IMG/VR virus record: IMGVR_UViG_2660237951_000012 | Coordinates: 1-18,756 of that record | Reading direction: 5' to 3' (one strand) | Source of the DNA: a virus | Taxonomy: Duplodnaviria > Heunggongvirae > Uroviricota > Caudoviricetes | DNA length: 18,756 nucleotides | Shown here: positions 889 through 18,756 of the stretch, one piece after another | Numbering within the stretch: the first letter of the stretch is position 1 | How the letters are laid out: the number at the start of each line of letters is the position of its first letter | Position numbers and translations under genes: made by a program | The notes under the pieces: model-generated | What the model was told of the DNA's origin: nothing | The model's database searches: none | What the model saw: the letters and a program-made list of their open reading frames with translations, nothing else

Positions 889-916
889 TAAAAAATAAGC
901 CCGTGTAAGGGAGATT
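889..916 (+). repeat. attL core of the P2-like prophage
   Basis: TAAAAAATAAGCCCGTGTAAGGGAGATT is repeated exactly at 17223..17250 in direct orientation. It matches the P2 att core as remembered and lies next to the int gene. Confidence 0.85.
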
Positions 917-3359: not shown

Positions 3360-3740
3360 CCCACTTACTCACCAGTTCGCCATTGATATAAAGCTCCATC
3401 GGGCGGGTGACCGGCTCCGGCGGCGGAGGTTCCGGGATATTCTTCACATGCAGCGCACCGTCAACCTCACTGACCAGCGTGCGCTCGGTCAGCATCAGGC
3501 TGATGCTGATATCAAAGCTGCTGTCATTGTTGATGTCCGCATAAAACGTGAAGCCCTTTTTCTGGCCTTCGTCGGTGGTCATGATGTCGGGCTGATTTTC
3601 CCGCAGCCACGCCAGCACCGGCACGATGAGCAGGTCAAAATCACCGGTAAAGTCGGTCACAATGACATTGAGCGTGTAACGCTTTTCGAATGACAGCGAC
3701 GTCGCCAGTGTGGAGGCAATACTCCCGTTATCCGTCGTGG
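3352..3740 (-). pseudogene. C-terminal fragment of an unresolved P2-like late (virion morphogenesis) protein
   Basis: Protein-like sequence ...TDFTGDFDLLIVPVLAWLRENQPDIMTTDEGQKKGFTFYADINNDSSFDISISLMLTERTL...MELYINGELVSKWDE ending in an ATGAATGA overlap with the downstream ORF. The N-terminal 50 residues of the listed ORF are Gly/Ala-rich and look like antisense of the P fragment. Family not identified. Confidence 0.35.
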
Positions 3741-3963
3741 CTGTCTGGAATATGACGTCAGCGCCACCGACATCACCAGCTCGTTTATGGCTATCCGCAA
3801 GACCATGACCAGCAGCGGACGCAGTGCCACCTATGAGGCCAGCCGCAGCGAGGAAGCCAGCCACGCCGACCTCGCCTGGGCGACCATGCACGCCCTGTTA
3901 AATGAGCCACTCACCGCCGGTATCAGCACCCCGCTGACATCCACCATTCTGGAGTTTTACTGA
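3741..3963 (+). pseudogene. P: terminase large subunit P, C-terminal remnant
   Basis: The frame ending in TGATG overlap with the Q start codon translates to ...MAIRKTMTSSGRSATYEASRSEEASHADLAWATMHALLNEPLTAGISTPLTSTILEFY. P precedes Q in the P2 P-Q operon; only about 70 codons remain (an internal ATG at 3787 would give 58 aa). Confidence 0.4.
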
Positions 3964-4997: not shown

Positions 4998-5002
4998 CCT
5001 AT

Positions 5003-5029
5003 AAAAAAGGCCGCAGAGCGGCCTTTTTT
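5003..5029. terminator. bidirectional intrinsic terminator between convergent Q and the 835-aa gene
   Basis: A6-GGCCGC-aga-GCGGCC-T6: GC stem flanked by an A-run and a T-run, so it can terminate on both strands. Confidence 0.7.
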
Positions 5030-5030
5030 A

Positions 5031-7505
5031 TTATACCTTTGTAATATGCTTTAATATTTCAATCACTTTAGCAACATATGATTGACTTACGCCGCCATCT
5101 CCTTCATATTCAGATATTTTATTTAAAGACTGTTTACATGCTTCCATATATTTAACTTTATTACTCTTCGATAGCTTATTGTAATTTGACAAATGAAAAT
5201 CTTTATATCTCGAAAACTGCCTCAGAGAGTAAATATCCACATCCAAATTACTAAGAAGGTTGTTTGCCTTTTCGAAATTAGAGAATACAATATTACCATC
5301 TGGTATCTTTTCGCTTGAAAGCAAATATATTTTTGCTTGCTGGGTATCAATATTGTTCGTGTGATATTTTGCTCGCTTTTCAGCTAACGCATATGCCTGG
5401 TCAATATACTGTTGTGCTTTTGGGTAATTTTTGTAAGCAATAAAACACATTGCGTATTGCAACCAGAAGTGTGGGTTTGAATTTAGCCATGGAACTTCAA
5501 TTTTTAACTTTTCATAATATCGTTGTAGCGTTGATATTTTCATACTTTCAGGAAGCAGCTGCTCAACAAAAGAAAACCTGAGCATAGCTTTAAATATTCT
5601 ATCCTGTTCATAATCCTTAGAGTTTAATTGATTAAACCTTGATGCAATAGTAAGCATTCGCTCTATAATAACAGTAGGAGTGAAATTATTTTTTATTAGA
5701 TGTATGCAAAATAAACTAGACCCGTTAATGATCCTACCGCCATGGAAATTAAATATTGCCTTAAACGCACTGTTATTAGTAAAATCCGGATCATAAATCA
5801 AATCATTGCCTGCAAGATCAGATATAATCCCTCGATTCGTTTCAATGCCAAGTATTTGACAAAGACAAATTGAAATAATTGTGTTTTCATGACTCTTACT
5901 CTTTTTAATCCCGGTAATTAAATCACTTATCTTATTTTTTATTTGCGGCGACTCCAAAAGAGTAAGCAATGCAATTGAGAATTGACTGTTATTCTCATTA
6001 GCTAAATATCTTACCTTTTGCTCTACACTAAGCCCTGCATTATCTCCCCAAAGACCTAAGTTATCTATTATTTTTGAAAAATCTTTTAACTCTACCTCAT
6101 CTAACATATCAATATTTATTTCAGAATATTTGAATTTTATGCGCTCCAAATCATCTCTGTGATATTCATGATCTGCAACACGGGCAGTAGCAAGTATTAG
6201 TACATTTTCGTAAGCAGCTCTGCCCACATGTTCCATTAATTCAAGATTCTTCTCATACCCATCAAGTAATATGATATTTTTCATGGATGATTGTGCTATA
6301 TAGTCAATATCTGATATAAAATCACCATCTATATCGGCCACTGTATAAACATCATAACCACCGACGGATAAAACACTCCTTAGCTCTTTCAATAAGATGG
6401 TTTTTCCGTTTCCAAGCGCCGAATAAATAATTACATTTTTTGATTGTTCAATTAATGAAACAGCTTTATCAATTTCACTTCTTTTTACTAAAAACGGTAC
6501 CTTAGTATTACCAAGTATAAAATTATCAATATGATGATCATCCAAATCACCATACATCAACATTTTTTCAACCTCTTCATCTCTAATAGAACTTGATTCA
6601 TTGGTTATATCATGAAGAAAAAGTGACTGTAGCTTATACTCCTGCTCTTCTGATACTGAAGTAATATTATCTCTTATTCTATTGGCAAAACCACTCAAAC
6701 CTATAGGCAAAACGGTACCGAATTTTTCTAGAGTAAATTCTAATTCGATATCAGGATTGAGACTAGTTACAAAAAATGTTTTTTCTTTTAATTGAGGTAA
6801 GGTAGAAAGGATTTTTTTTATTTCAATATCATACATTGAATAACCGATAAAAACGATCGCGCCACACCTATCTAAATCTCTTTTAAAATAATAGAACCAT
6901 TCAGAGTCAGTAAAAGAGTCAGGGCTTGAATAAGATGAATCAGAAAGTTTGAATGAATCATCAAGCGTTTCAGTAGAAATATTATTAATTGAACCATTAA
7001 GATGAATACATAAATTCTTGCGCTTATAATATTCCTTTGTTTTATGCTCAAGATCTATAGTTTCGAATTTATTACCGGATGATTCAGCTGCGATCTCAAA
7101 ACATCGGTCATAATTAGTTGTGTAACAACGTTTCCATGGTAGCGATGCGATTATATTTTGGTTCTCCGATGTTGTTTTTATAGAATAATTATAAATTAAT
7201 AGTTCTATTAATTTTAATGACGAGTTTTTTGCTAAGTAATAATCAGAAGAAAAGCGTAGGTTATCATTTTTAGGTATTGAACAAAGACCACATAATATAT
7301 GAGATAGCTCTATTGAAGAAGAAGGATTAGTATCATTAATATTCGTAGCTTCTTTAGAGAAACCCGCCCCCAAAAACAACATTGCCTTTCCAGAACAAAT
7401 ATTTGTAACTAGTTTAGCATAATCAATAGTTTGCTTGCTAATAATCAACTCTGTAAAATTAATATCCATTATAAAACCTATCATATAAATTAAGTGGGAT
7501 TTCAT
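5031..7505 (-). CDS. SIR2-like domain / P-loop NTPase / TPR-like repeat protein, candidate anti-phage defence
   Basis: The N-terminus carries the SIR2-type motif set LFLGAGFS, TTNYD, IHLNGS and VFIGYSMYD. The middle has a Walker A-like YSALGNGKT, Walker B-like NIILLDGYE and LILATAR. The C-terminus is helical and repeat-like. The listed ORF starts on TTG at 7538; ATG at 7505 (or 7469) is more likely. Strongly AT-rich by eye. Confidence 0.8.
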   Translation of the reverse strand: MKSHLIYMIGFIMDINFTELIISKQTIDYAKLVTNICSGKAMLFLGAGFSKEATNINDTNPSSSIELSHILCGLCSIPKNDNLRFSSDYYLAKNSSLKLIELLIYNYSIKTTSENQNIIASLPWKRCYTTNYDRCFEIAAESSGNKFETIDLEHKTKEYYKRKNLCIHLNGSINNISTETLDDSFKLSDSSYSSPDSFTDSEWFYYFKRDLDRCGAIVFIGYSMYDIEIKKILSTLPQLKEKTFFVTSLNPDIELEFTLEKFGTVLPIGLSGFANRIRDNITSVSEEQEYKLQSLFLHDITNESSSIRDEEVEKMLMYGDLDDHHIDNFILGNTKVPFLVKRSEIDKAVSLIEQSKNVIIYSALGNGKTILLKELRSVLSVGGYDVYTVADIDGDFISDIDYIAQSSMKNIILLDGYEKNLELMEHVGRAAYENVLILATARVADHEYHRDDLERIKFKYSEINIDMLDEVELKDFSKIIDNLGLWGDNAGLSVEQKVRYLANENNSQFSIALLTLLESPQIKNKISDLITGIKKSKSHENTIISICLCQILGIETNRGIISDLAGNDLIYDPDFTNNSAFKAIFNFHGGRIINGSSLFCIHLIKNNFTPTVIIERMLTIASRFNQLNSKDYEQDRIFKAMLRFSFVEQLLPESMKISTLQRYYEKLKIEVPWLNSNPHFWLQYAMCFIAYKNYPKAQQYIDQAYALAEKRAKYHTNNIDTQQAKIYLLSSEKIPDGNIVFSNFEKANNLLSNLDVDIYSLRQFSRYKDFHLSNYNKLSKSNKVKYMEACKQSLNKISEYEGDGGVSQSYVAKVIEILKHITKV

Positions 7506-7566
7506 AGTTAGTTCATTTCTGAACACAAAGCAAGTCAATAGCCATAATAAAATCTTTAACGCGCAG

Positions 7567-7585
7567 TGCTTTCCCCGCCTCGCCC
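7567..7585 (-). other. P2 cos site (19-nt cohesive end)
   Basis: Minus strand reads GGCGAGGCGGGGAAAGCAC, a 19/19 match to the P2 cohesive end as remembered; orientation agrees with the inverted segment. Confidence 0.8.
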
Positions 7586-8154
7586 GCCCGCTTCATGTGG
7601 CGGTTTTAATGCAGTTGCATAGATACTATGGATCCGCACCAGCTCTGACCGCGAGCAGCTGGAACGGGCATCCCCGACGCATGCAAAAACATTCACTTGT
7701 TGCATGCACGGCTTATTTAATGACAAATCAACTTAAGCGTCACCGCAGCTCCCACAAAAAAACGTAACACCATGATTTTAGTGATATTTATGACTTTTTT
7801 AATTGCTTATTTAAGTCCGCCATATTGAAACCGTGCATTTTTTAGCCACCAATAACTTTAAAAAATTTACATTGCTTTCAATACCTTATCATCCGTAGTC
7901 CCTGCTTTTTACTTTGAGCTATATCAAAAAAAGCTCAAACATCCTTGATGCAAAACCAGTATTACACAACATAAAATGCAACCAGAAACAACGACATACT
8001 ATATGTTGTGTTGTTCAGGCTCTCTGTTCGGTGATATGCCAGATCACTTTGCGTTTAAACAGAGCATTATTTCAGGGCAAGACTTCGCTAAATAGTAACT
8101 CCGCCTCAGAAGCGCATATATCGGCGGAAATTGCCCTCTGCTTACAGGAGGAGA

Positions 8155-8268
8155 TATGAAGAAGTGCTATTACTGCATTCTCGTTCTGGCCCTCTTTGGC
8201 TATCCATATGGTAGTCCAAGTGGTTTGTCAGTAAACGTCAGTAATATCCATGTAAGTATTATTCTTTA
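8155..8268 (+). CDS. hypothetical 37-aa hydrophobic peptide
   Basis: ATG preceded by strong AGGAGG Shine-Dalgarno at 7-nt spacing; MKKCYYCILVLALFGYPYGSPSGLSVNVSNIHVSIIL; followed by a hairpin with T-run. No recognisable homology. Confidence 0.35.
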
Positions 8269-8282
8269 GTATGCTTCAAACA

Positions 8283-8311
8283 AAAAAACCACCTGCCAGG
8301 GTGGTTTTTTT
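8283..8311 (+). terminator. putative intrinsic terminator
   Basis: AAAAAAACCACCTGCCAGGGTGGTTTTTTT: CCACC/GGTGG stem followed by a T7 run. Confidence 0.5.
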
Positions 8312-8571
8312 GCGCCTGTCATCATTCCGATGAAAGACTAGCAAGACTTCGCTCGAGATGAATTATGCTTCGACAAAAGGTCACTCGCAATGGTTTTATT
8401 AGCCGAAATAGATGCTCTTTTATGACTCGAATCAAATAGCTGCCTTAAATTACATGCTAGCGATTCAATACAATTTAGCCTTCTACTTCAGCATGCTATT
8501 GCTCCTCATCTGCATTAGAGGCGCTTCGCATAATCCATTCAAAGGCATATAAAATCACGCTGCATTTTTAC

Positions 8572-10848
8572 TCAAATGGGTAACAAAAATCCAGGCCACT
8601 CATCAGCGACCTGATAATTGAAATATTTCCCGTAATAATTTACGGTCGCGCCACGCGCCAGCGCCTCAAGCTCCCATCGCTGCGGCCTGATACCGTTCTG
8701 AGCAAGGTCAACGCGGATACGGGTAATTTGCATTCTTTCCGACCGGGTCAGTCTGGCCGATGGTGCAATTTCATGTGGTTTTAACGGGCTTCCGTTTCTT
8801 TGCTGACGATTTGGTGTTCTCAGGTCGTGTTTTAATGCCCCCCTGAGCGCCCTCACGACCTCCGTGTCATTCCATTCGATAACACCGTCATCAACCAGAT
8901 TAAGCACGGCTGCGGCGTGTTCAGAAGGTGTGGGAGCCGGTAACGAAGTATCACCACCGGTGAGCTTTCCACAGTTATTGACAGGACTCCGAGGCGCGGC
9001 GATGCCGCTTTTTAAAGTCAAAGGCTCAACGACCGGCACTTTCGGAACAATGCGCCAGTCCGTCGTTCTGGTGATATGAATATGACGCGCGCCGAGATGC
9101 GGCGCGTAAATGCCGACCACTCTCTCGACTTCTTCCTCGTACTCGTTAACGTCATCCGACGGGCTACGGGCGACCCTGACAGTCTGACAATCGCGCGGGA
9201 CATTTGCCCCGCCCTGCGCGCTGATATACAACGCAAAATCACCACTGTCTGCAGCGGCGCGTGCAGCCTCGACGCGCTCGTCAAACTCATCAGCAATGCT
9301 GACGCCGCGAGGCAATTTGCGTAGTTCACGGTAAGCCCCCATTGTCGGCAGACCAACCGTTTTAAATTGCGGAATGCGCCACGTTGACGCCCATGCGGTA
9401 ACAGCAGCAGCTGTGTCTTTCAGCGGCCTACCGGTATCATTATCGAGCTGACCATCCAGTGCATAGCCGTCGATGTTTTTTGAGATGTATTTCGCGATAT
9501 ATCCCGCAGCACCGCCCCGGTTAAGGTGTTTTGCCTGAAAACGGTTTCGCGCGGCTCCTCTTTCGTCGCCATCCTCTTTGAGCGCATAGCGACGCATGAT
9601 TTCAATAATCTGGTTACGCTGGCGTGGATTACAAAAAAGCATCATATGCCAGTGCGGCGTTCCGTCGTGGTGTGGTTCAACAACACGCAAACCGTAGGCC
9701 TGTAAATCATTATCCTTGAATGCCGTGCGCATCAGGCTCCAGATACGGCAGAGATAACGCTGCGCATCCTTTGGATTAAATGCCTCATCGTTCCAGCCGT
9801 GATTTAGCTGGACGGTTTTACTTTCGCCTTTTCTGACCTGACGTGTCGGGTGATACTTTGACGGCGCGGTCAGCGTGATAAACATCCCCACATCACCCTC
9901 TGCGGCGGCGTAACGCTCAATACCGGCGATGGTGTTCATCAGCTCCATCCGGCGAATTTCTGGATTAGAAATACTGCCCATCACCTTACTGATAAGGTCG
10001 ATGCGCTCGCCGGTTTCCTTGTTTTCAAGGTCACACGATTTAAGAAATTCCAGATTTGCCTGGCGGCGCGCACGCACATCACGAATGGCATGTTTACTGG
10101 CATAAGGAGAACGGTCTTTATTGACCTCCCCGACAGCAATCAGTAACGCCTCATGCCAGCGCATACGCTGGCCTTTAAGCTGATGAGTCCACCACTCATC
10201 GTTAAACAGGCGGGCAATGGCAGAATATGCCTGCCTCGTGGTCATCTGCCCTTTACGGTATTTTTTCCAGTAAAGCGGGGAAATATTGAAAGCACGTGCA
10301 GCGCCAGCAACATGACCATACAGATGTGCCTGCGCCTCATCCGTAAACAGCGATTCTTTTTCGCCATGCGCATCCACCCAGGCATCGCAGAGTTCCTCAT
10401 ACATCATGAAAAGCTGCGATGAGATACGGGCAGCAAACTTTTTCAGCTCCTTGTCATTCATTCCCGGCAGGCGCGCATAGTGGTCACGCTCTGCCAGAAA
10501 CAGCAACGACGCGTCGGTGTTCATTTCATGGCGCTGATTCACACGCTCAATGCGCGGCCATAAACGACGCTGAAAAGTGGATGTGAGGAAATAAAACCCG
10601 TGCACCGGGCTTTTATTGCGCCGGATGTAGTCATAGCGTGAAGTAAACAGCGAGCGCAAAAAGTAAGGCAGGCGGTTAATCGTGGATAAAACACCTTGCA
10701 CCTGACGCATCTCGTCACGTGTAAGGGGTCTTTCGCGCCCGACAGCCTCGCGTGGCGCGTTCCATGCATAAGCACCGGTAAACGCCTTACCGGTGCCTGC
10801 GGCAAATGCTGACGGAGGGACAAAACGCCCGGAGGCTTTAACGGCCAT
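8572..10848 (-). CDS. A: replication initiation endonuclease A (rolling-circle initiator)
   Basis: Matches remembered P2 gpA across its length (MAVKASGRFVPPSAFAAGTGK...HWHMMLFCNPRQ...YIAKYISKNIDGY). The listed ORF begins 14 codons upstream at 10890; the internal ATG at 10848 corresponds to the P2 start. Confidence 0.9.
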   Translation of the reverse strand: MAVKASGRFVPPSAFAAGTGKAFTGAYAWNAPREAVGRERPLTRDEMRQVQGVLSTINRLPYFLRSLFTSRYDYIRRNKSPVHGFYFLTSTFQRRLWPRIERVNQRHEMNTDASLLFLAERDHYARLPGMNDKELKKFAARISSQLFMMYEELCDAWVDAHGEKESLFTDEAQAHLYGHVAGAARAFNISPLYWKKYRKGQMTTRQAYSAIARLFNDEWWTHQLKGQRMRWHEALLIAVGEVNKDRSPYASKHAIRDVRARRQANLEFLKSCDLENKETGERIDLISKVMGSISNPEIRRMELMNTIAGIERYAAAEGDVGMFITLTAPSKYHPTRQVRKGESKTVQLNHGWNDEAFNPKDAQRYLCRIWSLMRTAFKDNDLQAYGLRVVEPHHDGTPHWHMMLFCNPRQRNQIIEIMRRYALKEDGDERGAARNRFQAKHLNRGGAAGYIAKYISKNIDGYALDGQLDNDTGRPLKDTAAAVTAWASTWRIPQFKTVGLPTMGAYRELRKLPRGVSIADEFDERVEAARAAADSGDFALYISAQGGANVPRDCQTVRVARSPSDDVNEYEEEVERVVGIYAPHLGARHIHITRTTDWRIVPKVPVVEPLTLKSGIAAPRSPVNNCGKLTGGDTSLPAPTPSEHAAAVLNLVDDGVIEWNDTEVVRALRGALKHDLRTPNRQQRNGSPLKPHEIAPSARLTRSERMQITRIRVDLAQNGIRPQRWELEALARGATVNYYGKYFNYQVADEWPGFLLPI

Positions 10849-11113
10849 ATGAGCCAAAAGCCTCTGAACAACGCTTGCTGAGTTGCTCAACCTGCGCGTT
10901 TAAATCAGCAAAAGACTTTGCGCTTCCGGTCAGAATATCGTGATGCATCAGGCCGGAAACGAGCTGGCTTAATTTCGGGTAATAACCAACCACCGCCAGC
11001 CATTCCTGACCGGCGTTTTTACCGCTTTCCGCTCTCTTTTTCTCGTGGAGAATAAACTGAAAGCTGTCACTGGTAACGACATAACGTTCGCCAATTTCAA
11101 TACGAATACTCAT
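10838..11113 (-). CDS. small P2 early-region protein upstream of A (orf83-like)
   Basis: 91 aa with GGAG Shine-Dalgarno 6 nt upstream of the ATG; its stop overlaps the A start. Position matches the small ORFs that precede A in P2; function unknown. Confidence 0.5.
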   Translation of the reverse strand: MSIRIEIGERYVVTSDSFQFILHEKKRAESGKNAGQEWLAVVGYYPKLSQLVSGLMHHDILTGSAKSFADLNAQVEQLSKRCSEAFGSYGR

Positions 11114-11188
11114 GCCGTTCTCCGGTAATGTTTGTTTTTTGCTTCAAAGACTGACTGGCAGGAAACACAACGCGTGGCTGACGGATAA

Positions 11189-12784
11189 GCCGCACGACGG
11201 GCACAGGACGCCACCACAGCACGAAAAGGCCTTGTCCAGCTCAGTAGTGCCACCAACAGCACGTCTGAAACGCTCGCTGCAACACCAAAAGCGGTAAAAG
11301 CAGCATATGACCTTGCTAACGGGAAATATACCGCACAGGACGCCACCACAGCGCGAAAAGGCCTTGTCCAGCTCAGTAGCGCCACCAACAGCGATTCTGA
11401 AACGCTTGCGGCAACACCAAAGGCGGTTAAGACAGCGTATGACCTTGCTAACGGGAAATACACTGCACAGGATGCCACTACAGCGCGAAAAGGTCTTGTC
11501 CAGCTCAGTAGCGCCACCAACAGTGATTCTGAAACGCTGGCCGCAACACCAAAAGCGGTGAGGTCTGCCTATGACAATGCTGAAAAACGTCTTCAGAAAG
11601 ATCAGAACGGTGCGGATATTCCGGGAAAGGATACCTTCACGAAAAATATCGGTGCCTGTCGTGCTTATAGCGGCGCTTTGAGCACTGAAGCCGGAAACTG
11701 GACAACCGCGCAGTTTATTGACTGGCTAGAGTCTCAGGGAGCCTTTAATCATCCCTACTGGATGTGCAAGTGTTCCTGGTCATACGGTAATAACAAAATT
11801 ATTACCGATACTGACTGTGGGACTATTCATCTTGCAGGTTGCGTGATTGAGGTTATGGGCGTTAAAGCAGCAATGACCATTCGTGTGACCACTCCGAGTA
11901 CATCAAGCGGTGGTGGTACCACCAGTGCGCAATTCACGTATATCAATCACGGAGCTGATTATGCGCCGGGCTGGCGACGCGACTACAATACGAAAAATAA
12001 GCAACCGGCTTTTGCATTAGGGAAAACAGGAAATACGGTTGCAAATAATAAAGCGGTAGGATGGAACTGGGACAGTGGTGCTTATTGTGCACAGGATGGC
12101 GGAGCATCAAAAATGGTGCTGCATTTTTACACGGGTGAGGGAAGTTGTCCGGCAATGCAGTTTCTTGTGGATTATAAAAACAGGGGGATTTTTTACAGGT
12201 CGGCACGTGATGGGTATGGATTTGAGGCTGACTGGTCAGAGTTTTATACAACATCACGAAAGCCAACACCTGCGGATATTCTTGCTCTGGCATTATCAGG
12301 CGGAAGCATGTCAGGCAGCATAAAATTTATCAATGATGCCTTCCTGATTTGGGAAAGAAACACTGACTGGGCGAAAATTGGATTTAAAAATGATTCAGAT
12401 GCTGATTCTGACTCATACATGTGGTTTGAAACTGGTGATAATGGCAATGAATATTTTAAATGGCGCATCAGGTCTGGCAGCACAACAAAAGATCTGATGA
12501 CGCTTAAGTCTGATGCACTACGGGTTACCGGGCAGGTGATACCATCAAATTTCAGCAATTTTGACTCCCGCTATGTCCGGGATCTCCGACTTGGTGGTGC
12601 AGCCACATACAAACCTGCGAACAATGGCATGACATGGACACATCAGGCACCGTCCGGGTGTGTATATACCGGCATTATTGTTCAGGATACCGGCTCAAAC
12701 TCTGCCGATAACATTGGTGGCGTATATTACAGACCGGTTCAGAAATACATTAACGGGACATGGTACAACGTGGCGCAGGTATAA
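11189..12784 (+). pseudogene. H: tail fibre protein H, 5'-truncated
   Basis: The frame is open from the stop at 11186 with no ATG, GTG or TTG before the GTG at 11558. It encodes the H repeat region, the conserved WERNTDWAKIGFKNDSDADSDSYMWFETGDNGNEYFKWR block and the C-terminus RPVQKYINGTWYNVAQV. The roughly 200 N-terminal residues of P2 H are absent. Confidence 0.8.
11201..11575 (+). repeat. tandem 132-bp repeats (about 2.8 copies) in the tail-fibre H gene
   Basis: The unit encoding AYDLANGKYTAQDATTARKGLVQLSSATNS(D/T)SETLAATPKAVKT recurs with period 132 nt (TATGACCTTGCTAACGGGAAATA at 11306 and 11438). It generates the spurious ORFs 11110..11520(-) and 11307..11561(+). Confidence 0.85.
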
Positions 12785-12787
12785 TTT

Positions 12788-13315
12788 ATGCAGCATTTGA
12801 TAAATATAACGGCAGGTAATCCAAAAACGGTTGAACAATATCAATTGACAAAGGACTTTGATGTTGTCTGGTTTTTTACAGAAGATGGTAAGAACTGGTA
12901 CGAAGAACAAAAGTATTTTGCTGATGACACGATAAAAATAGCGTACGACAAAGATAATATTATCCGCTATGTAGAAAAGGATGTGACAGCTATCAGACCG
13001 GATGGATTAAGTGTTGTTGAAGTGCCGGATATTACTGCTAACCGACGGGCGGACATTTCAGGGAACTGGATGTTTAAGGACGGCAAAGTGATTAAACGCA
13101 TTTATACGGCAGAGGAATTACAACAGCAGGCAGAAATTCGGAAAGCCAGACTTCTTGCAGATGCTGAATCCGTGATTTTGCCGCTGGAGCGCGCTGTCAG
13201 GCTGAACATGGCAACAGAGGAGGAGCGCACACGGCTGGAGGCTTGGGAACGCTACAGCGTTTTGGTCAGTCGTGTGGATCCTGCAAATCCTGAATGGCCG
13301 GAAATGCCGCAATAA
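12788..13315 (+). CDS. G: tail fibre assembly protein G
   Basis: 175 aa, [40 protein letters not shown]...[14 protein letters not shown] matches remembered P2 gpG. Confidence 0.9.
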
Positions 13316-13348
13316 GTTGTATAAGCTCTGGTGTGAGATTACATATCT

Positions 13349-13392
13349 ATGGCACAGAGTAAAGCCTAATCTGGCAGTCCGCTCTGTGCCAT
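13349..13392. other. 11-bp perfect inverted repeat (ATGGCACAGAG / CTCTGTGCCAT) with 22-nt loop
   Basis: Seen directly, just downstream of G at the boundary of the AT-rich cargo island. Confidence 0.4.
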
Positions 13393-13510
13393 TACCGGAC
13401 ATACTGAGCAGAAGGCTAAAAAGGACGCTTTCAGGACATATAGCAAGGGAGCAAGGATGAAAGAATTAACCAAGTATATTTAATGTTTCAATCATGATAG
13501 TTTCTGAATT

Positions 13511-13533
13511 AAAGGGGGCTACCCACCCCCTTT
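13511..13533 (-). terminator. putative hairpin terminator downstream of the 92-aa gene
   Basis: AAAGGGGG-ctaccca-CCCCCTTT stem-loop immediately after the stop at 13536; flanking T-run is weak. Confidence 0.4.
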
Positions 13534-13535
13534 AA

Positions 13536-13814
13536 TTACTTGTTCCACTCAGTCAGAATTTGGTTACTAACTTCATCTGAGAGATTGTACCAATAAGCTG
13601 AGTTATTGGTTGCGTCTACAACAATAAGCTTATCATCACTATCCATGACCGCCCTCACAATTTTGGCTGCATCCTCGGCAGAGTAACTACAGTTAACATA
13701 CCAGTTCGATTCAGTTGTTAAAGCCCAATTTCCTAAAGATTTAATTGCATCATACACAGCCGCATAATCTTTCGTTTTAATGAGGTCGTAAGTAATAAAT
13801 AAATTATTAGCCAT
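13536..13814 (-). CDS. hypothetical 92-aa protein (Z/fun-position cargo)
   Basis: ATG with GGGAG Shine-Dalgarno 8 nt upstream; MANNLFITYDLIKTKDYAAVYDAIKSLGNWALTTESNWYV...; no homology recognised. Confidence 0.6.
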   Translation of the reverse strand: MANNLFITYDLIKTKDYAAVYDAIKSLGNWALTTESNWYVNCSYSAEDAAKIVRAVMDSDDKLIVVDATNNSAYWYNLSDEVSNQILTEWNK

Positions 13815-13840
13815 AAATCATCTCCCAAAGGACAAAGAAA

Positions 13841-13866
13841 AAAGCGCCTAGAAAGGCGCTCATATA
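13841..13866 (-). terminator. intrinsic terminator between the DUF3606-like gene and the 92-aa gene
   Basis: Minus strand reads AGCGCC-tttcta-GGCGCT followed by TTTTTTCTTT, lying between the stop at 13867 and the next Shine-Dalgarno. Confidence 0.6.
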
Positions 13867-14046
13867 TTAATGGTCTTTAAGCCATGCCTGTACTTTCTTA
13901 GCCGAATGACCTACAGCCTGTACGGCTTGAACAAGTTTGGCCTCGCTAACTCCAAACTTTTCAGCCCAATCACGTCTCTCGTAATCCTGTTTGATACTTA
14001 TTAAATCATTGTCAGGGGTACCGATTTTGGTCTTATCATCAGCCAT
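13867..14046 (-). CDS. DUF3606-like small protein
   Basis: MADDKTKIGTPDNDLISIKQDYERRDWAEKFGVSEAKLVQAVQAVGHSAKKVQAWLKDH with GAGGA Shine-Dalgarno upstream of this ATG; the listed ORF extends to 14085. The motif pattern resembles the DUF3606 family from memory. Confidence 0.55.
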   Translation of the reverse strand: MADDKTKIGTPDNDLISIKQDYERRDWAEKFGVSEAKLVQAVQAVGHSAKKVQAWLKDH

Positions 14047-14537
14047 TTTACTGATTCCTCGTGATACAGGCTTATACCTGCCCATTAGTTATATGGCTCC
14101 CGTGCTGCTTCGTAAACGTTCAATAATCAAACAATTGACACTGATCATAAAACCAGTTATAGGATTTGACTCTAGCTTGGATATATGATGATGCCACCCC
14201 CTTTATATTGTTGTCGGTAACTCACAGACATTGAACTCATGCTGGTGAGTGAAAGGCTACATAAACGCCCAACATTTAAACTGCCCTCAGCAGCGTTCGC
14301 GGAGCAATATACAGGCTTCGTATTCAATCCTTGCCCTACGAGAAACCCTAGCCGTTGCCTCGTTTTCAAGTGTCAGGAAGTTCTTTGTCAGACCTCATAC
14401 AGTCTTGGGCTGGGTGAGGTGCATGGGGGAAGTTGAAGCCTTAACTGTTGAGGTAAATCGAACCATAAGTGTGCAATTTTTCAAGCCCGGCGCTATTTTA
14501 GTATTGAAAACAATTAGTACGCCCCCAAGGACAACTC

Positions 14538-15230
14538 ATGATCGAATTTATCGCAGAGCATATAAACACAGTAAGTACACTTATCTCCGCTTTGGCAGCA
14601 TTGCTAACAGCAGTTGCTACATTTTTCTTGTGGAGAGTAACAAGGCTATTAGCAGACGAGACAAAAAGGATGGTTGACGCATCAGTTCAACCTCATGTCG
14701 TTGTGACTCTTGAACCAAATTCTTGGGCTGCTTTTTATTTTGATATCAATATTGCTAATACCGGAAATGCCCCAGCCTATGATATTGAAGTCGGATTTAA
14801 TCCCCCACTGGTTAATGCAGAACATAGAAAAAATGAAGGTATACCATTTAGCAAGGTTAGCGTATTGAAAAACGGCCATTCCCTTAACAGCAGTCTTTGT
14901 AAGTATGACCAGATTAAAGATCAAGTTTATTCTGTTAGTATTAGCTGGTCTAAACAGCCGGGCTCAACTGAAAGAGAGCGGAATGAGTATTCTTATGATA
15001 TGGCTTCTTTCGAGGGGGTTAGCTACTTAGGTGCAAGGAGTCCAATGACACAGATAGCTGAGCAGATGAAAAAGATTAGAGAAGACTGGAGGCCGATTTC
15101 CCAGGGAAGCAAAAAAATTAAAACAGACAACTATAATTCAAGTGACAGAGCCGAGGAACAACGAGCACGTGAAGAGTGGTATCAGACCACTGCAAAGAAA
15201 TGGGATAAAGAAAAGCAAAAAGATAACTAA
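14538..15230 (+). CDS. hypothetical 230-aa membrane-anchored protein (Z/fun-position cargo)
   Basis: AAGGA Shine-Dalgarno 7 nt upstream; one N-terminal transmembrane helix (TLISALAALLTAVATFFLW), a central domain and a Lys/Glu-rich C-terminal tail; followed by a terminator. No homology recognised. Confidence 0.7.
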   Translation: MIEFIAEHINTVSTLISALAALLTAVATFFLWRVTRLLADETKRMVDASVQPHVVVTLEPNSWAAFYFDINIANTGNAPAYDIEVGFNPPLVNAEHRKNEGIPFSKVSVLKNGHSLNSSLCKYDQIKDQVYSVSISWSKQPGSTERERNEYSYDMASFEGVSYLGARSPMTQIAEQMKKIREDWRPISQGSKKIKTDNYNSSDRAEEQRAREEWYQTTAKKWDKEKQKDN

Positions 15231-15360
15231 TACAATTGACCTGCTCCCCATAAATTAGCATACCACAATCTCAGGTCCGCTCTTCGCTCAAAACAGGCTG
15301 TCAGATTTGACAGAATTTTGGTTACGTAATTTGTCAGTTGGAAACAGAGAGAGTACAAAT

Positions 15361-15395
15361 CAAGGCAGGCAAGCTGATTGCCCGCCTTTTCTTTA
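15361..15395 (+). terminator. putative intrinsic terminator after the 230-aa gene
   Basis: AAGGCAGGC...GCCCGCCTT imperfect stem (one mismatch) followed by TTTTCTTTATCTGTTGTTT. Confidence 0.5.
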
Positions 15396-15490
15396 TCTGT
15401 TGTTTCATCCACTGACCAGCCAGGTCAAATAGCGTCTCATGCACTGCCCAACAGAAAATAGTTGCACCCATTAACCACGGAGTTAAACGG

Positions 15491-15658
15491 ATGAGTGACT
15501 ATCATCATGGCGTGCAGGTGCTGGAGATTAACGACGGCACCCGCGTGGATGAATCACTGGCCGCGCTTTATGGCGATATCGGTAAACAGGCGGAGTCGCT
15601 CATCGGTAAGGCTGGCAGTATGGCGACCAGATTCACGGGTATGACGGGGGCGGGATAA
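15491..15658 (+). pseudogene. in-frame fusion remnant: tail sheath FI N-terminus joined to tail protein U C-terminus
   Basis: The 55-aa ORF starts MSDYHHGVQVLEIN (remembered FI start) and ends ...SMATRFTGMTGAG with a TAATG overlap onto D, which is the natural U/D junction. Implies deletion of FI, FII, E, T and most of U. Confidence 0.55.
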
Positions 15659-16821
15659 TGCTGGATGCGCTGACATTTGATGCAGGCAGTACGCTGACGC
15701 CGGATTACATGCTGATGCTCGACAGCAGGGATATTACCGGCAATATCAGCGACCGTCTGATGAGCATGACCCTGACGGATAACCGGGGCTTTGAGGCTGA
15801 CCAGCTTGATATTGAACTGAACGATGCCGACGGGCAGGTCGGGCTGCCGGTTCGTGGCGCTGTCCTGACGGTGTATATCGGCTGGAAAGGTTTTGCCCTG
15901 GTATGCAAAGGGAAATTTACCGTTGATGAGGTTGAACACCGGGGCGCACCGGATGTAGTCACCATCCGCGCCCGGAGTGCAGATTTTCGCGGGACGCTCA
16001 ATTCCCGCCGGGAAGGCTCCTGGCATGACACCACGCTCGGTGCGATTGTTAAGGCGATAGCCACCCGTAACAGGCTGGAAGCCAGTGTCGCTCCGTCACT
16101 GGCCGGAATTAAAATCCCGCACATCGACCAGTCGCAGGAGTCTGATGCGAAATTTCTGACCCGTCTTGCAGAACGCAACGGCGGTGAGGTGTCGGTAAAA
16201 ATGGGAAAACTGCTGTTTCTCAAAGCGGGGCAGGGGGTGACGGCCAGCGGTAAAAAAATCCCGCAGATTACCATCACCCGCAGCGATGGTGACCGTCACC
16301 ATTTTGCGATTGCTGACCGTGGAGCCTACACCGGCGTAACGGCAAAGTGGCTACACACCAAAGACCCGAAGCCGCAAAAGCAGAAGGTAAAACTGAAACG
16401 CAAAAAGAAAGAGAAACACCTGCGCGCACTGGAGCACCCGAAAGCGAAACCGGTCACGCAGAAGAAAGCGCCAAAAGTACCGGAAGCGCGCGAAGGTGAA
16501 TACATGGCCGGTGAGGCTGACAATGTTTTTGCCCTGACCACGGTATATGCCACAAAAGCGCAGGCCATGCGCGCCGCTCAGGCGAAGTGGGATAAACTGC
16601 AACGGGGTGTGGCGGAGTTCTCCATCAGCCTGGCTACCGGTCGGGCAGATATTTACACGGAAACACCGGTTAAAGTGTCAGGCTTTAAGCGCGTCATAGA
16701 CGAGCAGGACTGGACAATCACTAAGGTGACACATTTTCTTAATAATAGCGGCTTCACGACGTCCTTAGATCTTGAGGTCAGGCTTTCTGATGTGGAGTAC
16801 GAAACAGAAGATGATGAGTGA
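15658..16821 (+). CDS. D: tail protein D
   Basis: 387 aa, MLDALTFDAGSTLTPDYMLMLDSRDITGNISDRLMSMTLTDNRGFEADQLDIELNDADGQ... matches remembered P2 gpD, including the Lys-rich internal segment. Confidence 0.92.
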   Translation: MLDALTFDAGSTLTPDYMLMLDSRDITGNISDRLMSMTLTDNRGFEADQLDIELNDADGQVGLPVRGAVLTVYIGWKGFALVCKGKFTVDEVEHRGAPDVVTIRARSADFRGTLNSRREGSWHDTTLGAIVKAIATRNRLEASVAPSLAGIKIPHIDQSQESDAKFLTRLAERNGGEVSVKMGKLLFLKAGQGVTASGKKIPQITITRSDGDRHHFAIADRGAYTGVTAKWLHTKDPKPQKQKVKLKRKKKEKHLRALEHPKAKPVTQKKAPKVPEAREGEYMAGEADNVFALTTVYATKAQAMRAAQAKWDKLQRGVAEFSISLATGRADIYTETPVKVSGFKRVIDEQDWTITKVTHFLNNSGFTTSLDLEVRLSDVEYETEDDE

Positions 16822-16902
16822 TGTTTTTATTTTATCTGTTTGTTTTATAAGGATAAATTAACTAAAATAACACCATCAACAAAACCGGAAGAGGTGCTCG
16901 CG

Positions 16903-17121
16903 ATGTTTCATTGTCCTTTATGCCAGCATGCCGCACATGCGCGTACAAGCCGCTATATCACTGACACGACAAAAGAGCGTTATCACCAGTGCCAGAACGT
17001 GAATTGCAGCGCCACGTTCATCACCTATGAGTCGGTACAGAGATACATCGTGAAGCCGGGAGAAGTCCACGCCGTAAGGCCGCACCCGTTGCCGTCAGGG
17101 CAGCAAATTATGTGGATGTAA
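16903..17121 (+). CDS. ogr: Ogr zinc-finger late transcription activator
   Basis: 72 aa from the internal ATG: MFHCPLCQHAAHARTSRYITDTTKERYHQCQNVNCSATFITYESVQRYIVKPGE..., with CxxC...CxxxxC motif. The listed ORF start at 16840 is an upstream extension. Confidence 0.93.
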   Translation: MFHCPLCQHAAHARTSRYITDTTKERYHQCQNVNCSATFITYESVQRYIVKPGEVHAVRPHPLPSGQQIMWM

Positions 17122-17132
17122 TTACAAACAGA

Positions 17133-17159
17133 AAGCCCCTCAGTTGAGGGGCTTTTTTT
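17133..17159 (+). terminator. intrinsic terminator of ogr
   Basis: AGCCCCTCA-gt-TGAGGGGCT perfect stem followed by T7. Confidence 0.8.
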
Positions 17160-17222
17160 GTCGATGTGGTCAATGTGTGGACGTGACCAGAAATAAATCC
17201 TTTTATTTCATTGTATTACGCG

Positions 17223-17250
17223 TAAAAAATAAGCCCGTGTAAGGGAGATT
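17223..17250 (+). repeat. attR core of the P2-like prophage
   Basis: Exact copy of 889..916; overlaps the 3' terminator end of cyaR on the opposite strand. Confidence 0.85.
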
Positions 17251-17310
17251 ACACAGGCTAAGGAGGTGGTTCCTGGTACAGCTAGCATTTTATGGGTTAT
17301 GTTTTTCAGC
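17224..17310 (-). ncRNA. cyaR: CyaR (RyeE) Hfq-dependent small RNA
   Basis: Minus strand reads GCTGAAAAACATAACCCATAAAATGCTAGCTGTACCAGGAACCACCTCCTTAGCCTGTGTAATCTCCCTTACACGGGCTTATTTTTT, matching CyaR as remembered, including the terminator that forms the P2 att core. Confidence 0.85.
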
Positions 17311-17360
17311 GAAACGGATGATAACCTTAATAAATGCAGCTGTATGTGATCGGTTTCTAA
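17311..17360 (-). promoter_or_regulatory. cyaR promoter with CRP-like site
   Basis: On the minus strand, a -10 TATCAT lies 7 nt upstream of the RNA 5' end and TTAGAAACCGATCACA (TCACA half-site) sits around -40. CyaR is known to be CRP-activated. Confidence 0.55.
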
Positions 17361-17394
17361 GAATTTTCCATCCGGGAAAAATAATCGAAATTAA

Positions 17395-18756
17395 TCACTT
17401 ACCGTGTGGGTTACGCGTGGTTTCCCCGGAGAAATTACGCATCAGCAGCGCGTAATTTAGCTCAAGATCCTGCGGCACCGGGAGCCACACAGTATAACCA
17501 TCGCCTGGTGCTACCGGCATAGCTTCGCCTTTGGCGTTTTCCATGTGCTCAAGGGTAAAGTTAATGTTGCCTTGCGGCGTCATCAGCTCAAGGCTGTCGC
17601 CAACGGAGAATTTATTTTTCACTGCTACCGCCGCGAGGTCCCCCTTGCGCTCACCGGTAAACTCACCAACAAACTGCTGGCGGTCAGAAACCGAATAACC
17701 GTATTCGTAGTTCTGATAATCGTCGTGAGTATGACGACGCAGGAAACCTTCGGTATAGCCACGATGCGCCAGACCTTCCAGAGTTTCCAGCAGGCTGGTA
17801 TCGAACGGTTTGCCCGCAGCGGCATCATCGATAGCTTTACGATAAACCTGTGCGGTGCGTGCGCAATAGTAGAAAGATTTAGTACGGCCTTCGATCTTCA
17901 GCGAATGCACGCCCATTTTGGTCAGGCGCTCAACGTGGGCGATGGCACGCAGATCTTTCGAGTTCATAATGTAAGTGCCGTGTTCGTCTTCAAACGCGGT
18001 CATATACTCGCCCGGACGCTGGGCCTCTTCGATCATAAACACTTTGTCGGTTGGCGCGCCAATACCAAGCGTCGGCTCAACGTTTTGCACCGGAATCGGC
18101 TCGTACTTGTGTACGATGTTGCCGACGTCATCTTCTTTACCTTCCTGTACGTTGTACTCCCAGCGGCAGGCATTGGTGCAGGTTCCCTGGTTCGGGTCGC
18201 GTTTGTTAATGTAGCCCGAGAGCAGGCAGCGGCCGGAGTAGGCCATGCACAGTGCGCCGTGAACGAAGATCTCGATCTCCATATCCGGCACCTGATTGCG
18301 GATCTCTTCAATCTCTTCCAGCGACAGCTCGCGAGAGAGGATCACGCGGGTCAGGCCCATTTGCTGCCAGAATTTCACCGTCGCCCAGTTTACGGCGTTA
18401 GCCTGCACCGAGAGGTGGATCGGCATTTCAGGGAAGTGCTCACGCACCAGCATAATCAGCCCTGGATCGGACATAATCAGCGCATCCGGCCCCATTTCCA
18501 CCACCGGTTTCAGGTCACGGATAAAGGTTTTCAGCTTGGCGTTGTGCGGGGCAATGTTGACCACGACATAAAACTTTTTCCCCAGCGCGTGGGCTTCATT
18601 GATGCCGAGCTGAAGATTTTCGTGGTTGAATTCGTTGTTGCGCACACGCAGGGAGTAACGCGGCTGGCCCGCATAAACAGCATCTGCGCCATAAGCGAAA
18701 GCGTAACGCATATTTTTCAGCGTTCCCGCCGGGGAAAGGAGTTCCGGTTTAAACAT
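17395..18756 (-). CDS. yegQ: U32-family peptidase-like protein YegQ (TrhP)
   Basis: 453 aa, MFKPELLSPAGTLKNMRYAFAYGADAVYAGQPRYSLRVRNNEF... matches remembered E. coli YegQ; the start codon sits at the last bases of the window. Confidence 0.93.
   Translation of the reverse strand: MFKPELLSPAGTLKNMRYAFAYGADAVYAGQPRYSLRVRNNEFNHENLQLGINEAHALGKKFYVVVNIAPHNAKLKTFIRDLKPVVEMGPDALIMSDPGLIMLVREHFPEMPIHLSVQANAVNWATVKFWQQMGLTRVILSRELSLEEIEEIRNQVPDMEIEIFVHGALCMAYSGRCLLSGYINKRDPNQGTCTNACRWEYNVQEGKEDDVGNIVHKYEPIPVQNVEPTLGIGAPTDKVFMIEEAQRPGEYMTAFEDEHGTYIMNSKDLRAIAHVERLTKMGVHSLKIEGRTKSFYYCARTAQVYRKAIDDAAAGKPFDTSLLETLEGLAHRGYTEGFLRRHTHDDYQNYEYGYSVSDRQQFVGEFTGERKGDLAAVAVKNKFSVGDSLELMTPQGNINFTLEHMENAKGEAMPVAPGDGYTVWLPVPQDLELNYALLMRNFSGETTRNPHGK

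What the first reader, a model, noticed from the sequence alone, without database searches (positions are those of the whole stretch)
15396..15658. In-frame FI'/U' mini-ORF: a precise deletion of the tail sheath/tube/tape-measure block leaves D and ogr intact
The 55-codon ORF joins the first 18 or so codons of the sheath gene to the last 37 or so codons of U in frame, retaining the natural TAATG coupling to D. D and ogr are then full length and ogr has its own terminator. Retention of ogr and D at this host site also occurs in E. coli K-12 (ogrK plus a D fragment), hinting that this end of the prophage is under selection or simply deleted last.
Basis: partly seen in the sequence, partly recalled or inferred. 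Interest (0 to 1): 0.35.

Follow-up and report, generated by a model that had tools for sequence, protein, structure and literature searches.

The report
Deletion scar in decayed P2 prophage
The 55-codon ORF is the scar of a 5-kb deletion that removed the tail sheath, tube and tape-measure genes of a decayed P2-like prophage; the scar itself is ordinary, but its right-hand breakpoint in gene U is reused by many independent deletions in other E. coli prophages.

Summary
ORF 15491..15658 joins P2-type FI codons 1-16 to U codons 124-159. The three codons between them (T-R-V) lie in a 9-bp direct repeat, CACCCGCGT (15538-15546), present in both parent genes. Relative to intact relatives exactly 4,972 bp are missing: the rest of FI, FII, E/E', T and most of U. 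The fusion is in frame. The pF promoter region is 100% identical to that of an intact relative, and the ATAATG stop/start overlap with D is kept. D (387 aa), ogr (72 aa, identical to P2 Ogr), its terminator, attR and CyaR are intact.

The prophage is otherwise a 16.4-kb wreck at the yegR-yegQ (locI) site, with at least three more deletions and an 8.4-kb inversion. D and ogr are therefore not specially spared. I found no evidence that the mini-ORF has a function.

One result was unexpected. At least 14 different left partners in other E. coli prophages, at three att sites, are joined to U at this same nucleotide. The identical FI-16|U junction also occurs in a second, divergent prophage. U nt 359-361 is thus a recurrent deletion endpoint, and its cause is unexplained.

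The finding as given is ordinary; the hot spot is modestly interesting.

The parts
890..916 (+). attL core of the prophage (27 bp, identical to the P2 attP core)
   Evidence: Exact match, one of two in the window, with 0 expected by chance. P2 homology starts here.
15362..15388 (+). Terminator-like hairpin that closes the cargo unit upstream of pF
   Evidence: Found by the hairpin scan. The sequence is conserved with P2 just upstream of the pF activator site.
15398..15423 (+). Homologue of the P2 pF activator (Ogr) binding site
   Evidence: Aligns to the P2 site annotated at 17555-17583. Window 15396-15546 is 151/151 identical to the region upstream of an intact FI in CFSAN061770.
15465..15467 (+). 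Inferred pF transcription start, placed by homology only
   Evidence: Aligns to the P2 F-operon start at 17626-17628.
15491..15658 (+). 55-codon FI'-U' fusion ORF, the deletion scar
   Evidence: ORF list; alignments to FI and U; no Pfam hit.
15491..15537 (+). FI-only part (FI nt 1-47)
   Evidence: 100% identical to the FI 5' end in L003; matches no part of U.
15538..15546 (+). Junction microhomology CACCCGCGT, present in both FI (nt 48-56) and U (nt 360-368); the crossover lies somewhere inside it
   Evidence: The two BLAST matches overlap here; parental sequences shown side by side.
15547..15657 (+). U-only part (U nt 369-479, up to the stop)
   Evidence: 97-98% identical to the U 3' end of P2 and L003.
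15655..15660 (+). ATAATG overlap of the U stop and the D start codon
   Evidence: Read directly from the sequence; same arrangement as P2 U 22312-22791 / D 22791-23954.
15658..16821 (+). Gene D (baseplate hub), full length, 387 aa
   Evidence: Same length as P2 D with three substitutions; Pfam Phage_GPD 1.7e-26.
16840..16869 (+). ogr promoter (-35/-10), placed by homology
   Evidence: Constant offset from the P2 annotation 23973-24002 (offset checked on the D and ogr ends).
16903..17121 (+). ogr, 72 aa, identical to P2 Ogr
   Evidence: Translation comparison; Pfam Ogr_Delta 1.1e-21.
17132..17155 (+). Rho-independent terminator of ogr and the F operon
   Evidence: Hairpin found by the scan; P2 annotates a terminator at the corresponding position, 24265-24288.
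17160..17223 (+). Int P-arm and IHF sites of attR, placed by homology
   Evidence: The P2 P-arm sequence TCGATGTGGTCAATGTGTGGACGTGACC is present.
17224..17250 (+). attR core (27 bp)
   Evidence: Exact match.
17227..17312 (-). CyaR sRNA gene; its terminator overlaps the att core
   Evidence: Rfam RF00112, 100.7 bits against a threshold of 47.
17395..18756 (-). Host gene yegQ/trhP, the right flank of the locI site
   Evidence: ORF; same flank annotated in S3, E4, M172-1 and MG1655.

Best explanation
The mini-ORF is a neutral scar. A P2-like prophage sits at the classical P2 locI site, between yegR and cyaR/yegQ. It lost 4,972 bp of its F (tail) operon in one illegitimate, short-homology recombination event between two in-phase copies of CACCCGCGT, one at FI nt 48-56 and one at U nt 360-368. 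One copy of the repeat was kept. No IS, no extra bases and no recombinase site are present at the junction. This fits slipped-strand or template-switch joining, or microhomology end joining. The mechanism is inferred from the junction anatomy and has not been tested. The deletion removed FI from codon 17-20 onward, FII, E/E', T and U codons 1-120. The pF promoter now drives (if Ogr is present) a short transcript: mini-ORF, then D, then ogr, then the terminator. That the fusion is in frame and still overlaps the D start follows from the two repeats sharing a codon phase. It need not reflect selection. The prophage was disabled independently several other times, so the scar has no role in virion production and the 55-aa product probably does nothing. 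The location of the right breakpoint is not arbitrary: U nt 359-361 is a recurrent deletion endpoint in P2-like prophages.
For: Junction anatomy and the 9-bp overlap. Deletion size 14271-9299 = 4,972 bp in L003, and the same in P2 (22671-17699). Flanks: pF region 151/151 identical to an intact relative, U'-D 97.4%. Same codon phase in both parents. D and Ogr intact. att cores and CyaR. Other damage, mapped against the intact M172-1 prophage: window 2793-11207 is inverted and holds two internal deletions with 13-bp and 8-bp overlaps; B to orf82 and part of I/H are missing. The prophage is 16,361 bp against 33,593 bp for P2. Rarity: the junction is absent from 5,426 complete E. coli genomes, from GTDB representative genomes and from JGI metagenomes. 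The 55-aa product is on record only as WP_187641020.1 plus two one-residue variants. Recurrence: the same FI-16|U junction occurs in a different prophage at the pflB site; mismatches start 31 nt left and 8 nt right of the junction, and D differs by about 3.6%. Thirteen further left partners are joined at the same U position.
Against: Nothing contradicts the deletion origin. Three points keep it from being a purely random slip. (1) The F operon holds 209 direct repeats of 9 bp or more, several of 11-17 bp, so this pair is not the obvious choice. (2) The U endpoint is reused far more often than chance allows. (3) Base 15547 (G) matches neither the usual FI (C) nor the usual U (T/A) base at that position. 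This may be a private substitution or a variant in the parent. The claim that the ORF is neutral is inferred. Expression was not measured.
Confidence: 0.9

Rival explanations
1. The deletion was triggered by a localised lesion in gene U, not by a random slip. The lesion would be a site-specific nick, a replication pause or a fragile site at U nt 359-361. It would leave a fixed strand end that is joined, through 2-9 nt of terminal homology, to whatever lies upstream. This refines the best explanation and does not replace it.
For: Fourteen distinct left partners share this U endpoint to the nucleotide: FI codons 16, 80, 92, 250 and 275; FII 71; E 13; T 34; T ~700; R 81; cos nt 81; two cargo sites; one contig end. 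The 13 other junctions in U codons 77-159 are singletons or one pair. The prophages sit at three att sites (yegQ, pflB, fieF/pfkA) and their D genes differ by 1.6-3.6%, as much as intact phages differ from one another. Homology at the junction is often only CA or TA, so homology length does not explain the choice of site. A -1 frameshift allele also maps to the CCC run of this site (P0055).
Against: No cause was found. There is no stable hairpin (z = +1.6 and +1.2). P2 has no Chi site, and about 55 equally Chi-like 8-mers lie nearby. The site does not resemble the P2 ori nick site, att core, Int arm sites, Cox site or cos. A control search with the C-terminus of gene T also showed mild clustering (2+2+1 of about 10 junctions within 9 nt), so some clustering may be generic. 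The survey sees only ORFs of 131 aa or fewer that gene callers reported.
Confidence: 0.45
2. The junction arose in two steps. First came an S3-type deletion (FI nt ~756 joined to U nt 360 across CACC). That deletion creates an 11-bp direct repeat, GGCACCCGCGT, about 700 bp apart. A second slip between those repeats would then give exactly the window's junction.
For: Strain S3 carries precisely that intermediate at the same chromosomal site, also in frame. The predicted product cannot be told apart from a one-step event.
Against: The window's U'-D differs from that of S3 by 37-38 of about 1,275 nt, which is no closer than to unrelated phages. The window's pF/FI side is 100% CFSAN061770-like. 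The one-step 9-bp event has occurred independently in another background.
Confidence: 0.06
3. The in-frame scar is kept by selection. It would preserve translation into D, avoiding polarity, so that a pF - mini-ORF - D - ogr module remains expressible. The module could then serve, for example, to interfere with or complement incoming P2/P4-type elements.
For: Of the 10 left partners that lie inside genes, 9 are in frame. A simulation of the detection bias gives an expectation of 0.34-0.48 (p about 0.001-0.008). D is a full 387 aa in all fetched remnant contexts except L022.
Against: Part of the in-frame excess follows from the homology itself, because ACC and GGC ACC are in-phase codons. For junctions with only 1-2 nt of homology the count is 4 of 5, which is not significant. 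The promoter in front of D differs among remnants (pF, R, cos, cargo). The remnants are clonal and probably young. E4 carries an out-of-frame junction with D intact. This window's junction is known only from the window itself.
Confidence: 0.08
4. The junction is an assembly artefact: a collapse across a short repeat.
For: None specific. The source reads were not available for checking.
Against: A 9-bp repeat is far too short to collapse an assembly. The same product is recorded in NCBI nr as WP_187641020.1. One-residue variants of it are encoded in an independent NCBI assembly, a Logan assembly and ENA contigs. Analogous junctions sit in complete genomes (S3).
Confidence: 0.02

Closest known systems
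E. coli K-12 cryptic P2 remnant PR-X (ogrK + yegZ) at the locI site
   Same: Same chromosomal site, next to cyaR and trhP/yegQ. The ogr end of a P2-type prophage is retained. OgrK differs from this Ogr by one residue (A57V). From memory, not retrieved here: Barreiro & Haggard-Ljungquist 1992 described the remnant, and Slettan et al. 1992 showed that K-12 ogr is functional.
   Different: PR-X is only 629 bp. D is cut to its last ~215 nt, and its left end is the att core itself (…CCCGTGTA|GCAGAG…), which points to an att-core x pseudo-site event. Here attL, int, C, A, Q, G, cargo and a full-length D survive, and the junction lies between FI and U.
Intact P2-like prophages: P2 NC_001895; E. coli CFSAN061770 at pflB; M172-1 at yegQ
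   Same: Same gene order and 97-100% nucleotide identity in pF, the FI 5' end, the U 3' end, D, ogr and att. CFSAN061770 carries the same cargo between G and FI.
   Different: These prophages carry the full FI-FII-E-T-U block and all head, lysis and baseplate genes.
Short-homology (illegitimate) deletions with one fixed endpoint, for example deletions anchored at an arrested replication fork (terB hot spot, Bierne, Ehrlich & Michel 1991; from memory, not retrieved)
   Same: One endpoint is fixed to the nucleotide, the other endpoint varies from 0.3 to more than 20 kb away, and the junctions have 2-9 nt of homology.
   Different: No Ter-like site, bound protein or structural cause was identified at U nt 359-361. 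Replication arrest there is only a hypothesis.
Defective P2-like prophages that keep their defence cargo (bioRxiv 10.64898/2026.02.27.708500)
   Same: Mobility and virion genes are decayed, while the cargo is intact: an 835-aa SIR2_2 protein with a sub-threshold STAND NTPase match at the old/tin hotspot, and a unit containing DUF3606 at the Z/fun hotspot.
   Different: In my term search that paper did not turn up a recurrent breakpoint in U.

Membership tests
P2-like (Peduovirus) prophage integrated at locI | 27-bp att core duplicated at both ends, next to cyaR/yegQ on one side and yegR on the other | tested here: met
   Exact cores at 890-916 and 17224-17250; CyaR at 17227-17312; flanks as in S3, E4, M172-1 and MG1655.
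P2-like (Peduovirus) prophage integrated at locI | int-C-cox immunity/integration module and D-ogr-att right end, in P2 order | tested here: met
   Window 889-2792 is 99.5% identical to P2 att-int-C-cox; 15538-17250 is 97.2% identical to P2 U'-D-ogr-att.
P2-like (Peduovirus) prophage integrated at locI | Complete set of head, lysis, baseplate and tail genes, i.e. a viable phage | tested here: not met
   Missing: most of P; O to lysC; part of R and most of S; V; W; part of J; part of I and H; most of FI; FII; E; T; most of U; B to orf82. An 8.4-kb segment is also inverted. This is a defective prophage.
Short-homology (microhomology-mediated) deletion | The same short sequence occurs at both parental breakpoints, in direct orientation, and one copy is kept at the junction | tested here: met
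   CACCCGCGT occurs at FI nt 48-56 and U nt 360-368, and once in the window at 15538-15546.
Short-homology (microhomology-mediated) deletion | No foreign bases, IS end or recombinase core site at the junction | tested here: met
   The two parental alignments abut with overlap and no insert. The site does not resemble the att core, arm sites, ori nick site or cos.
Short-homology (microhomology-mediated) deletion | Independence from RecA and from phage Int | not testable with these tools
   Requires genetics in recA and int backgrounds.
K-12 PR-X type remnant | att core fused directly to a 3' fragment of D, with everything to the left of it lost | tested here: not met
   Here D is full length, and attL-int-C-cox and many other genes remain.
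Functional small protein or selected gene fusion | Conserved across unrelated lineages, or matching a known domain | tested here: not met
   No Pfam hit. The product is on record only as WP_187641020.1 and two one-residue variants. The junction is absent from 5,426 complete E. coli genomes.
Functional small protein or selected gene fusion | Expression, and a phenotype on loss | not testable with these tools
   Requires RNA-seq or Ribo-seq and a knockout.

The most novel reading that the evidence does not exclude
Gene U of P2-like prophages contains a specific fragile point at nt 359-361 (CT[C/T]|ACCCGCGT). An unidentified process creates a fixed strand end there; it could be a nick by a phage or host enzyme, or a replication pause. 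This repeatedly truncates the tail operon and leaves D-ogr-att behind. The excess of in-frame junctions would then mean that remnants which keep translating into D are preferentially retained. If so, this is a defined, recurrent route by which P2-type prophages are disabled and partly domesticated.
Probability: 0.25. Interest if true: 0.55.

Novelty: new member of a known kind. Interest (0 to 1): 0.3.

Why it matters
The scar on its own only shows how one more P2-type prophage lost its tail genes. The recurrent breakpoint matters more. If one nucleotide position in U accounts for about half of the deletion endpoints seen in that part of the gene, across divergent phages and three integration sites, then prophage decay is not purely random here. 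In that case the repeated survival of D-ogr next to the att site (K-12 being the textbook case) would have a mechanistic explanation, at least in part, and not only a selective one. The site is small and defined, so the idea can be tested directly by recoding it in a P2 lysogen and collecting deletions.

Tried and rejected
1. Derivation from a single gene: rejected, because the two halves match FI and U separately.
2. The 9-bp repeat as the longest available: rejected. The F operon has 209 direct repeats of 9 bp or more, up to 17 bp.
3. Common descent of the window and S3 junctions: not supported. D differs by about 3%.
4. Common descent of all junctions at the U site: rejected. The right-hand sides are as diverse as those of intact phages. 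The window and L160 differ within 8 nt and 31 nt of the junction.
5. Hairpin or cruciform at the U site: none.
6. Chi or a Chi-like stop for RecBCD: P2 has no Chi, and about 55 equally Chi-like 8-mers lie nearby.
7. A secondary gpA nick site: the ori sequence GCGCCTCG|GAGTCC is not similar.
8. Int core sites, Int arm sites, Cox or cos: best ungapped matches are only about 50%.
9. An apparent rule of a pyrimidine at position -2 in the left partners: this turned out to be plain 2-nt homology, because intact U occurs as both CTC and CTT.
10. Searches for the junction elsewhere found nothing: complete E. coli genomes, GTDB representatives, JGI metagenomes, IMG/VR.
11. Exact-protein contig look-up for the window's own product found nothing.
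12. Literature searches found no description of a breakpoint in U.
13. CRISPR self-targeting was considered but not properly tested.

Full report
**1. What is at the coordinates**

The ORF runs 15491..15658 (55 codons). The first 95 bases of the reported range (15396-15490) are non-coding. They align to the P2 late promoter pF, including its annotated activator-binding site and transcription start. Over 15396-15546 they are 151/151 identical to the sequence upstream of an intact sheath gene in E. coli CFSAN061770 (locus L003).

BLAST of the window against L003 gives two matches that overlap by nine bases. Window up to 15546 corresponds to L003 up to 9307 (FI nt 56). Window from 15538 corresponds to L003 from 14271 (U nt 360). 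The parental sequences are:

- FI: ...GACGGCACCCGCGTCATTTCC...
- U: ...GTCGCTCACCCGCGTTGATGAA...
- Window...GACGGCACCCGCGTGGATGAA...

The product is therefore FI codons 1-16, then T-R-V encoded by the shared CACCCGCGT, then U codons 124-159. The missing DNA is 4,972 bp both in L003 and in P2 (17699 to 22671). It comprises the rest of FI, FII, E/E', T and U codons 1-120. Both repeat copies are in the same codon phase, so the fusion is in frame. The U stop still overlaps the D start as ATAATG.

**2. Downstream genes and flanks**

- D is 387 aa, with three substitutions relative to P2 gpD.
- Ogr is 72/72 identical to P2 Ogr. K-12 OgrK differs by A57V.
- Pfam confirms Phage_GPD and Ogr_Delta and finds nothing in the 55-aa product.
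- The ogr/F-operon terminator hairpin is at 17132-17155.
- The Int P-arm sequence is present.
- The 27-bp att core occurs exactly twice, at 890-916 and 17224-17250.
- CyaR overlaps attR, and yegQ/trhP follows.

This is the classical P2 locI site, the one occupied in MG1655 by cryptic prophage PR-X (ogrK plus the D fragment yegZ).

**3. State of the whole prophage**

The element is 16.4 kb against 33.6 kb for P2. I mapped it against the intact prophage of strain M172-1, which sits at the same site:

- 1-2792: flank, attL, int, C and nearly all of cox.
- 2793-11207: an inverted segment. It holds I'/J' (2793-3335), S'/R' (3323-3733) and P'-Q-SIR2-A-orf83 (3726-11207). Two internal deletion junctions show 13-bp and 8-bp overlaps.
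- B to orf82, and part of I and H, are missing.
- 11208-15400: a partial H, then G and cargo.

The FI-U deletion is thus one of at least four deletions plus an inversion. int, C, A, Q, G and the cargo genes are as intact as D and ogr. This weakens any argument that the D-ogr end is specially preserved in this strain.

**4. How common this junction is**

The junction is absent from 5,426 complete E. coli genomes, from GTDB representative genomes and from JGI metagenomes. The 55-aa protein exists in NCBI nr as WP_187641020.1, with two one-residue variants.

One variant is encoded in a different defective prophage at the pflB att site, with different cargo and a different pattern of decay. Its sequence differs from the window 31 nt to the left and 8 nt to the right of the junction, and by about 3.6% across D. 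The same FI-16|U deletion has therefore very probably happened at least twice.

**5. The unexpected part: a recurrent endpoint in U**

Two other complete genomes have independent FI-U deletions at locI with D and ogrK intact:

- S3 joins FI nt ~756 to U at exactly the same position (CACC), also in frame.
- E4 joins FI nt ~574 to U nt ~453, out of frame.

Protein searches with the fusion, and with the last 75 residues of U, returned many short ORFs that are themselves fusion products. At least 14 different left partners are joined immediately before T121 of U:

- FI codons 16, 80, 92, 250 and 275
- FII codon 71
- E codon 13
- T codon 34
- T codon ~700 (out of frame)
- R codon 81
- the cos region (P2 nt 81)
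- two cargo regions
- one contig end

DNA for 11 of these was fetched and confirms the junction to the nucleotide. They lie at three att sites: yegQ, pflB and fieF/pfkA. Their U'-D segments differ by 20-46 of 1,280 nt, as much as intact phages differ from each other. They are therefore independent events and not one inherited scar.

The 13 other junctions found in U codons 77-159 are singletons, apart from one pair. Every left partner shares at least CA or TA with U, and at most 9 nt. The TA cases are explained by the natural CTT variant of Leu120.

In complete genomes the events are rare. U nt 240-359 occurs at 1,805 places and U nt 360-479 at 1,817. IMG/VR viral contigs show none.

**6. Caveats on the hot spot**

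- The survey sees only ORFs of about 131 aa or fewer that gene callers reported.
- A control with the C-terminus of T showed a weaker cluster, 2+2+1 of about 10 junctions within 9 nt. Some clustering may therefore be generic.
- The cause is unknown. I found no hairpin and no Chi site, and Chi-like 8-mers are common nearby. The site does not resemble the P2 ori nick site, att core, arm sites, Cox site or cos.
- The pattern is one fixed end, one variable end up to more than 20 kb away, and 2-9 nt of terminal homology. This is what a fixed strand end would give, whether from a nick or from a paused nascent strand. That mechanism is inference.

**7. In-frame bias**

Nine of the ten left partners that lie inside genes are in frame. 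A simulation on P2 imposes the one-base A homology and the 43-131 aa detection window. It predicts 34-48% in frame, giving p of about 0.001-0.008. Part of this follows from the homology itself, because ACC and GGC ACC are in-phase codons. For junctions with only 1-2 nt of homology the count is 4 of 5, which is not significant. Selection for continued translation into D is therefore possible but not shown.

**8. Comparison with K-12**

The parallel is real, but the route differs. In MG1655 the att core itself is fused to D nt ~950 (AAAAAATAAGCCCGTGTA|GCAGAGTTC). That looks like an att-core x pseudo-site event and not an internal operon deletion. I cite from memory that this remnant and the functionality of K-12 ogr were described in 1992 (Barreiro & Haggard-Ljungquist; Slettan et al.). 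I could not retrieve those papers. A 2026 preprint reports that defective P2-like prophages often keep intact defence cargo, which fits the SIR2_2 protein (with a sub-threshold STAND NTPase match) here.

**9. Verdict**

The feature is a deletion scar in a defective P2-like prophage, which is a known kind of thing and in itself ordinary. The added value is that its U breakpoint belongs to a recurrent, unexplained deletion endpoint.

Noticed in passing
window 15538-15546; L002, L007-L022, L160-L161 at the equivalent of P2 22670-22672: U nt 359-361 (CT[C/T]|ACCCGCGT) is a recurrent right-hand deletion endpoint. At least 14 different left partners in E. coli P2-like prophages, at three att sites, are joined there. 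Other junctions in the last 83 codons of U are singletons, apart from one pair. The cause is unknown.
   Followed up: yes
L160 10001-10168 (NCBI GCA_047671475.1) and L161: The same FI-16|U junction as in the window occurs in a different defective prophage at the pflB att site. Mismatches begin 31 nt left and 8 nt right of the junction, so the identical deletion appears to have arisen more than once.
   Followed up: yes
L007/L008 (yegQ site) and L009 (pflB site), junction at 7040: An identical E-13|U junction sits at two different att sites, in backgrounds that differ by 28 of 1,280 nt in U'-D. About 245 nt around the junction are identical, so either recurrence or a short recombination patch is possible.
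   Followed up: partly
window 2793-11207: An 8.4-kb segment of the prophage (I'/J', S'/R', P'-Q-SIR2-A-orf83) is inverted relative to both prophage ends. It contains two more deletion junctions, with 13-bp (3323-3335) and 8-bp (3726-3733) overlaps.
   Followed up: partly
window 5031-7538 (-): An intact 835-aa protein at the P2 old/tin cargo hotspot, with a SIR2_2 domain and a weak, sub-threshold STAND NTPase match. It is 99% identical to the cargo of an intact prophage in strain M172-1. This is likely an anti-phage system retained in a dead prophage.
   Followed up: partly
window 13536-15230: Cargo at the Z/fun hotspot between G and pF: a 92-aa ORF, a 72-aa DUF3606 protein and a 230-aa ORF with no Pfam match. 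The sampled end of this unit (15240-15395) is 100% identical to, and the cargo genes are the same as in, intact prophages such as that of CFSAN061770. Function is unknown.
   Followed up: no
window 11110-11560: Repetitive stretch (repeated ...VALLSWTRPFRAVVASCAVYFPLARSYA... in one frame) at the right border of the inverted segment, just before the partial H gene. It matches the intact relatives only partly: window 11248-11433 is 89% identical to a stretch of L003, and the rest has no match there.
   Followed up: no
L006 (MG1655) 3500-4000, reverse strand: The left end of the K-12 PR-X remnant lies inside the att core, fused to D nt ~950 (…AAAAAATAAGCCCGTGTA|GCAGAGTTC…). This is a different origin from the internal F-operon deletions.
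   Followed up: partly
proteins P0069-P0076: In the control search, deletion junctions at the C-terminus of tape-measure gene T also cluster mildly around ...PA|GRSY... (GCT GGC CGC). Endpoint clustering may therefore be a more general feature of these operons.
   Followed up: partly
protein P0055: One U allele carries a -1 frameshift exactly in the CCC run of the hot-spot sequence (ACCCGCG to ACCGCG).
   Followed up: no
window 17224-18756 and 1-844: The host flanks are only about 96-98% identical to the same genes in strains S3 and E4. Almost all 5,426 complete E. coli genomes give a best match of 95-99%. The source may be a divergent E. coli lineage, and no complete genome in the collection has this locus arrangement.
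   Followed up: no
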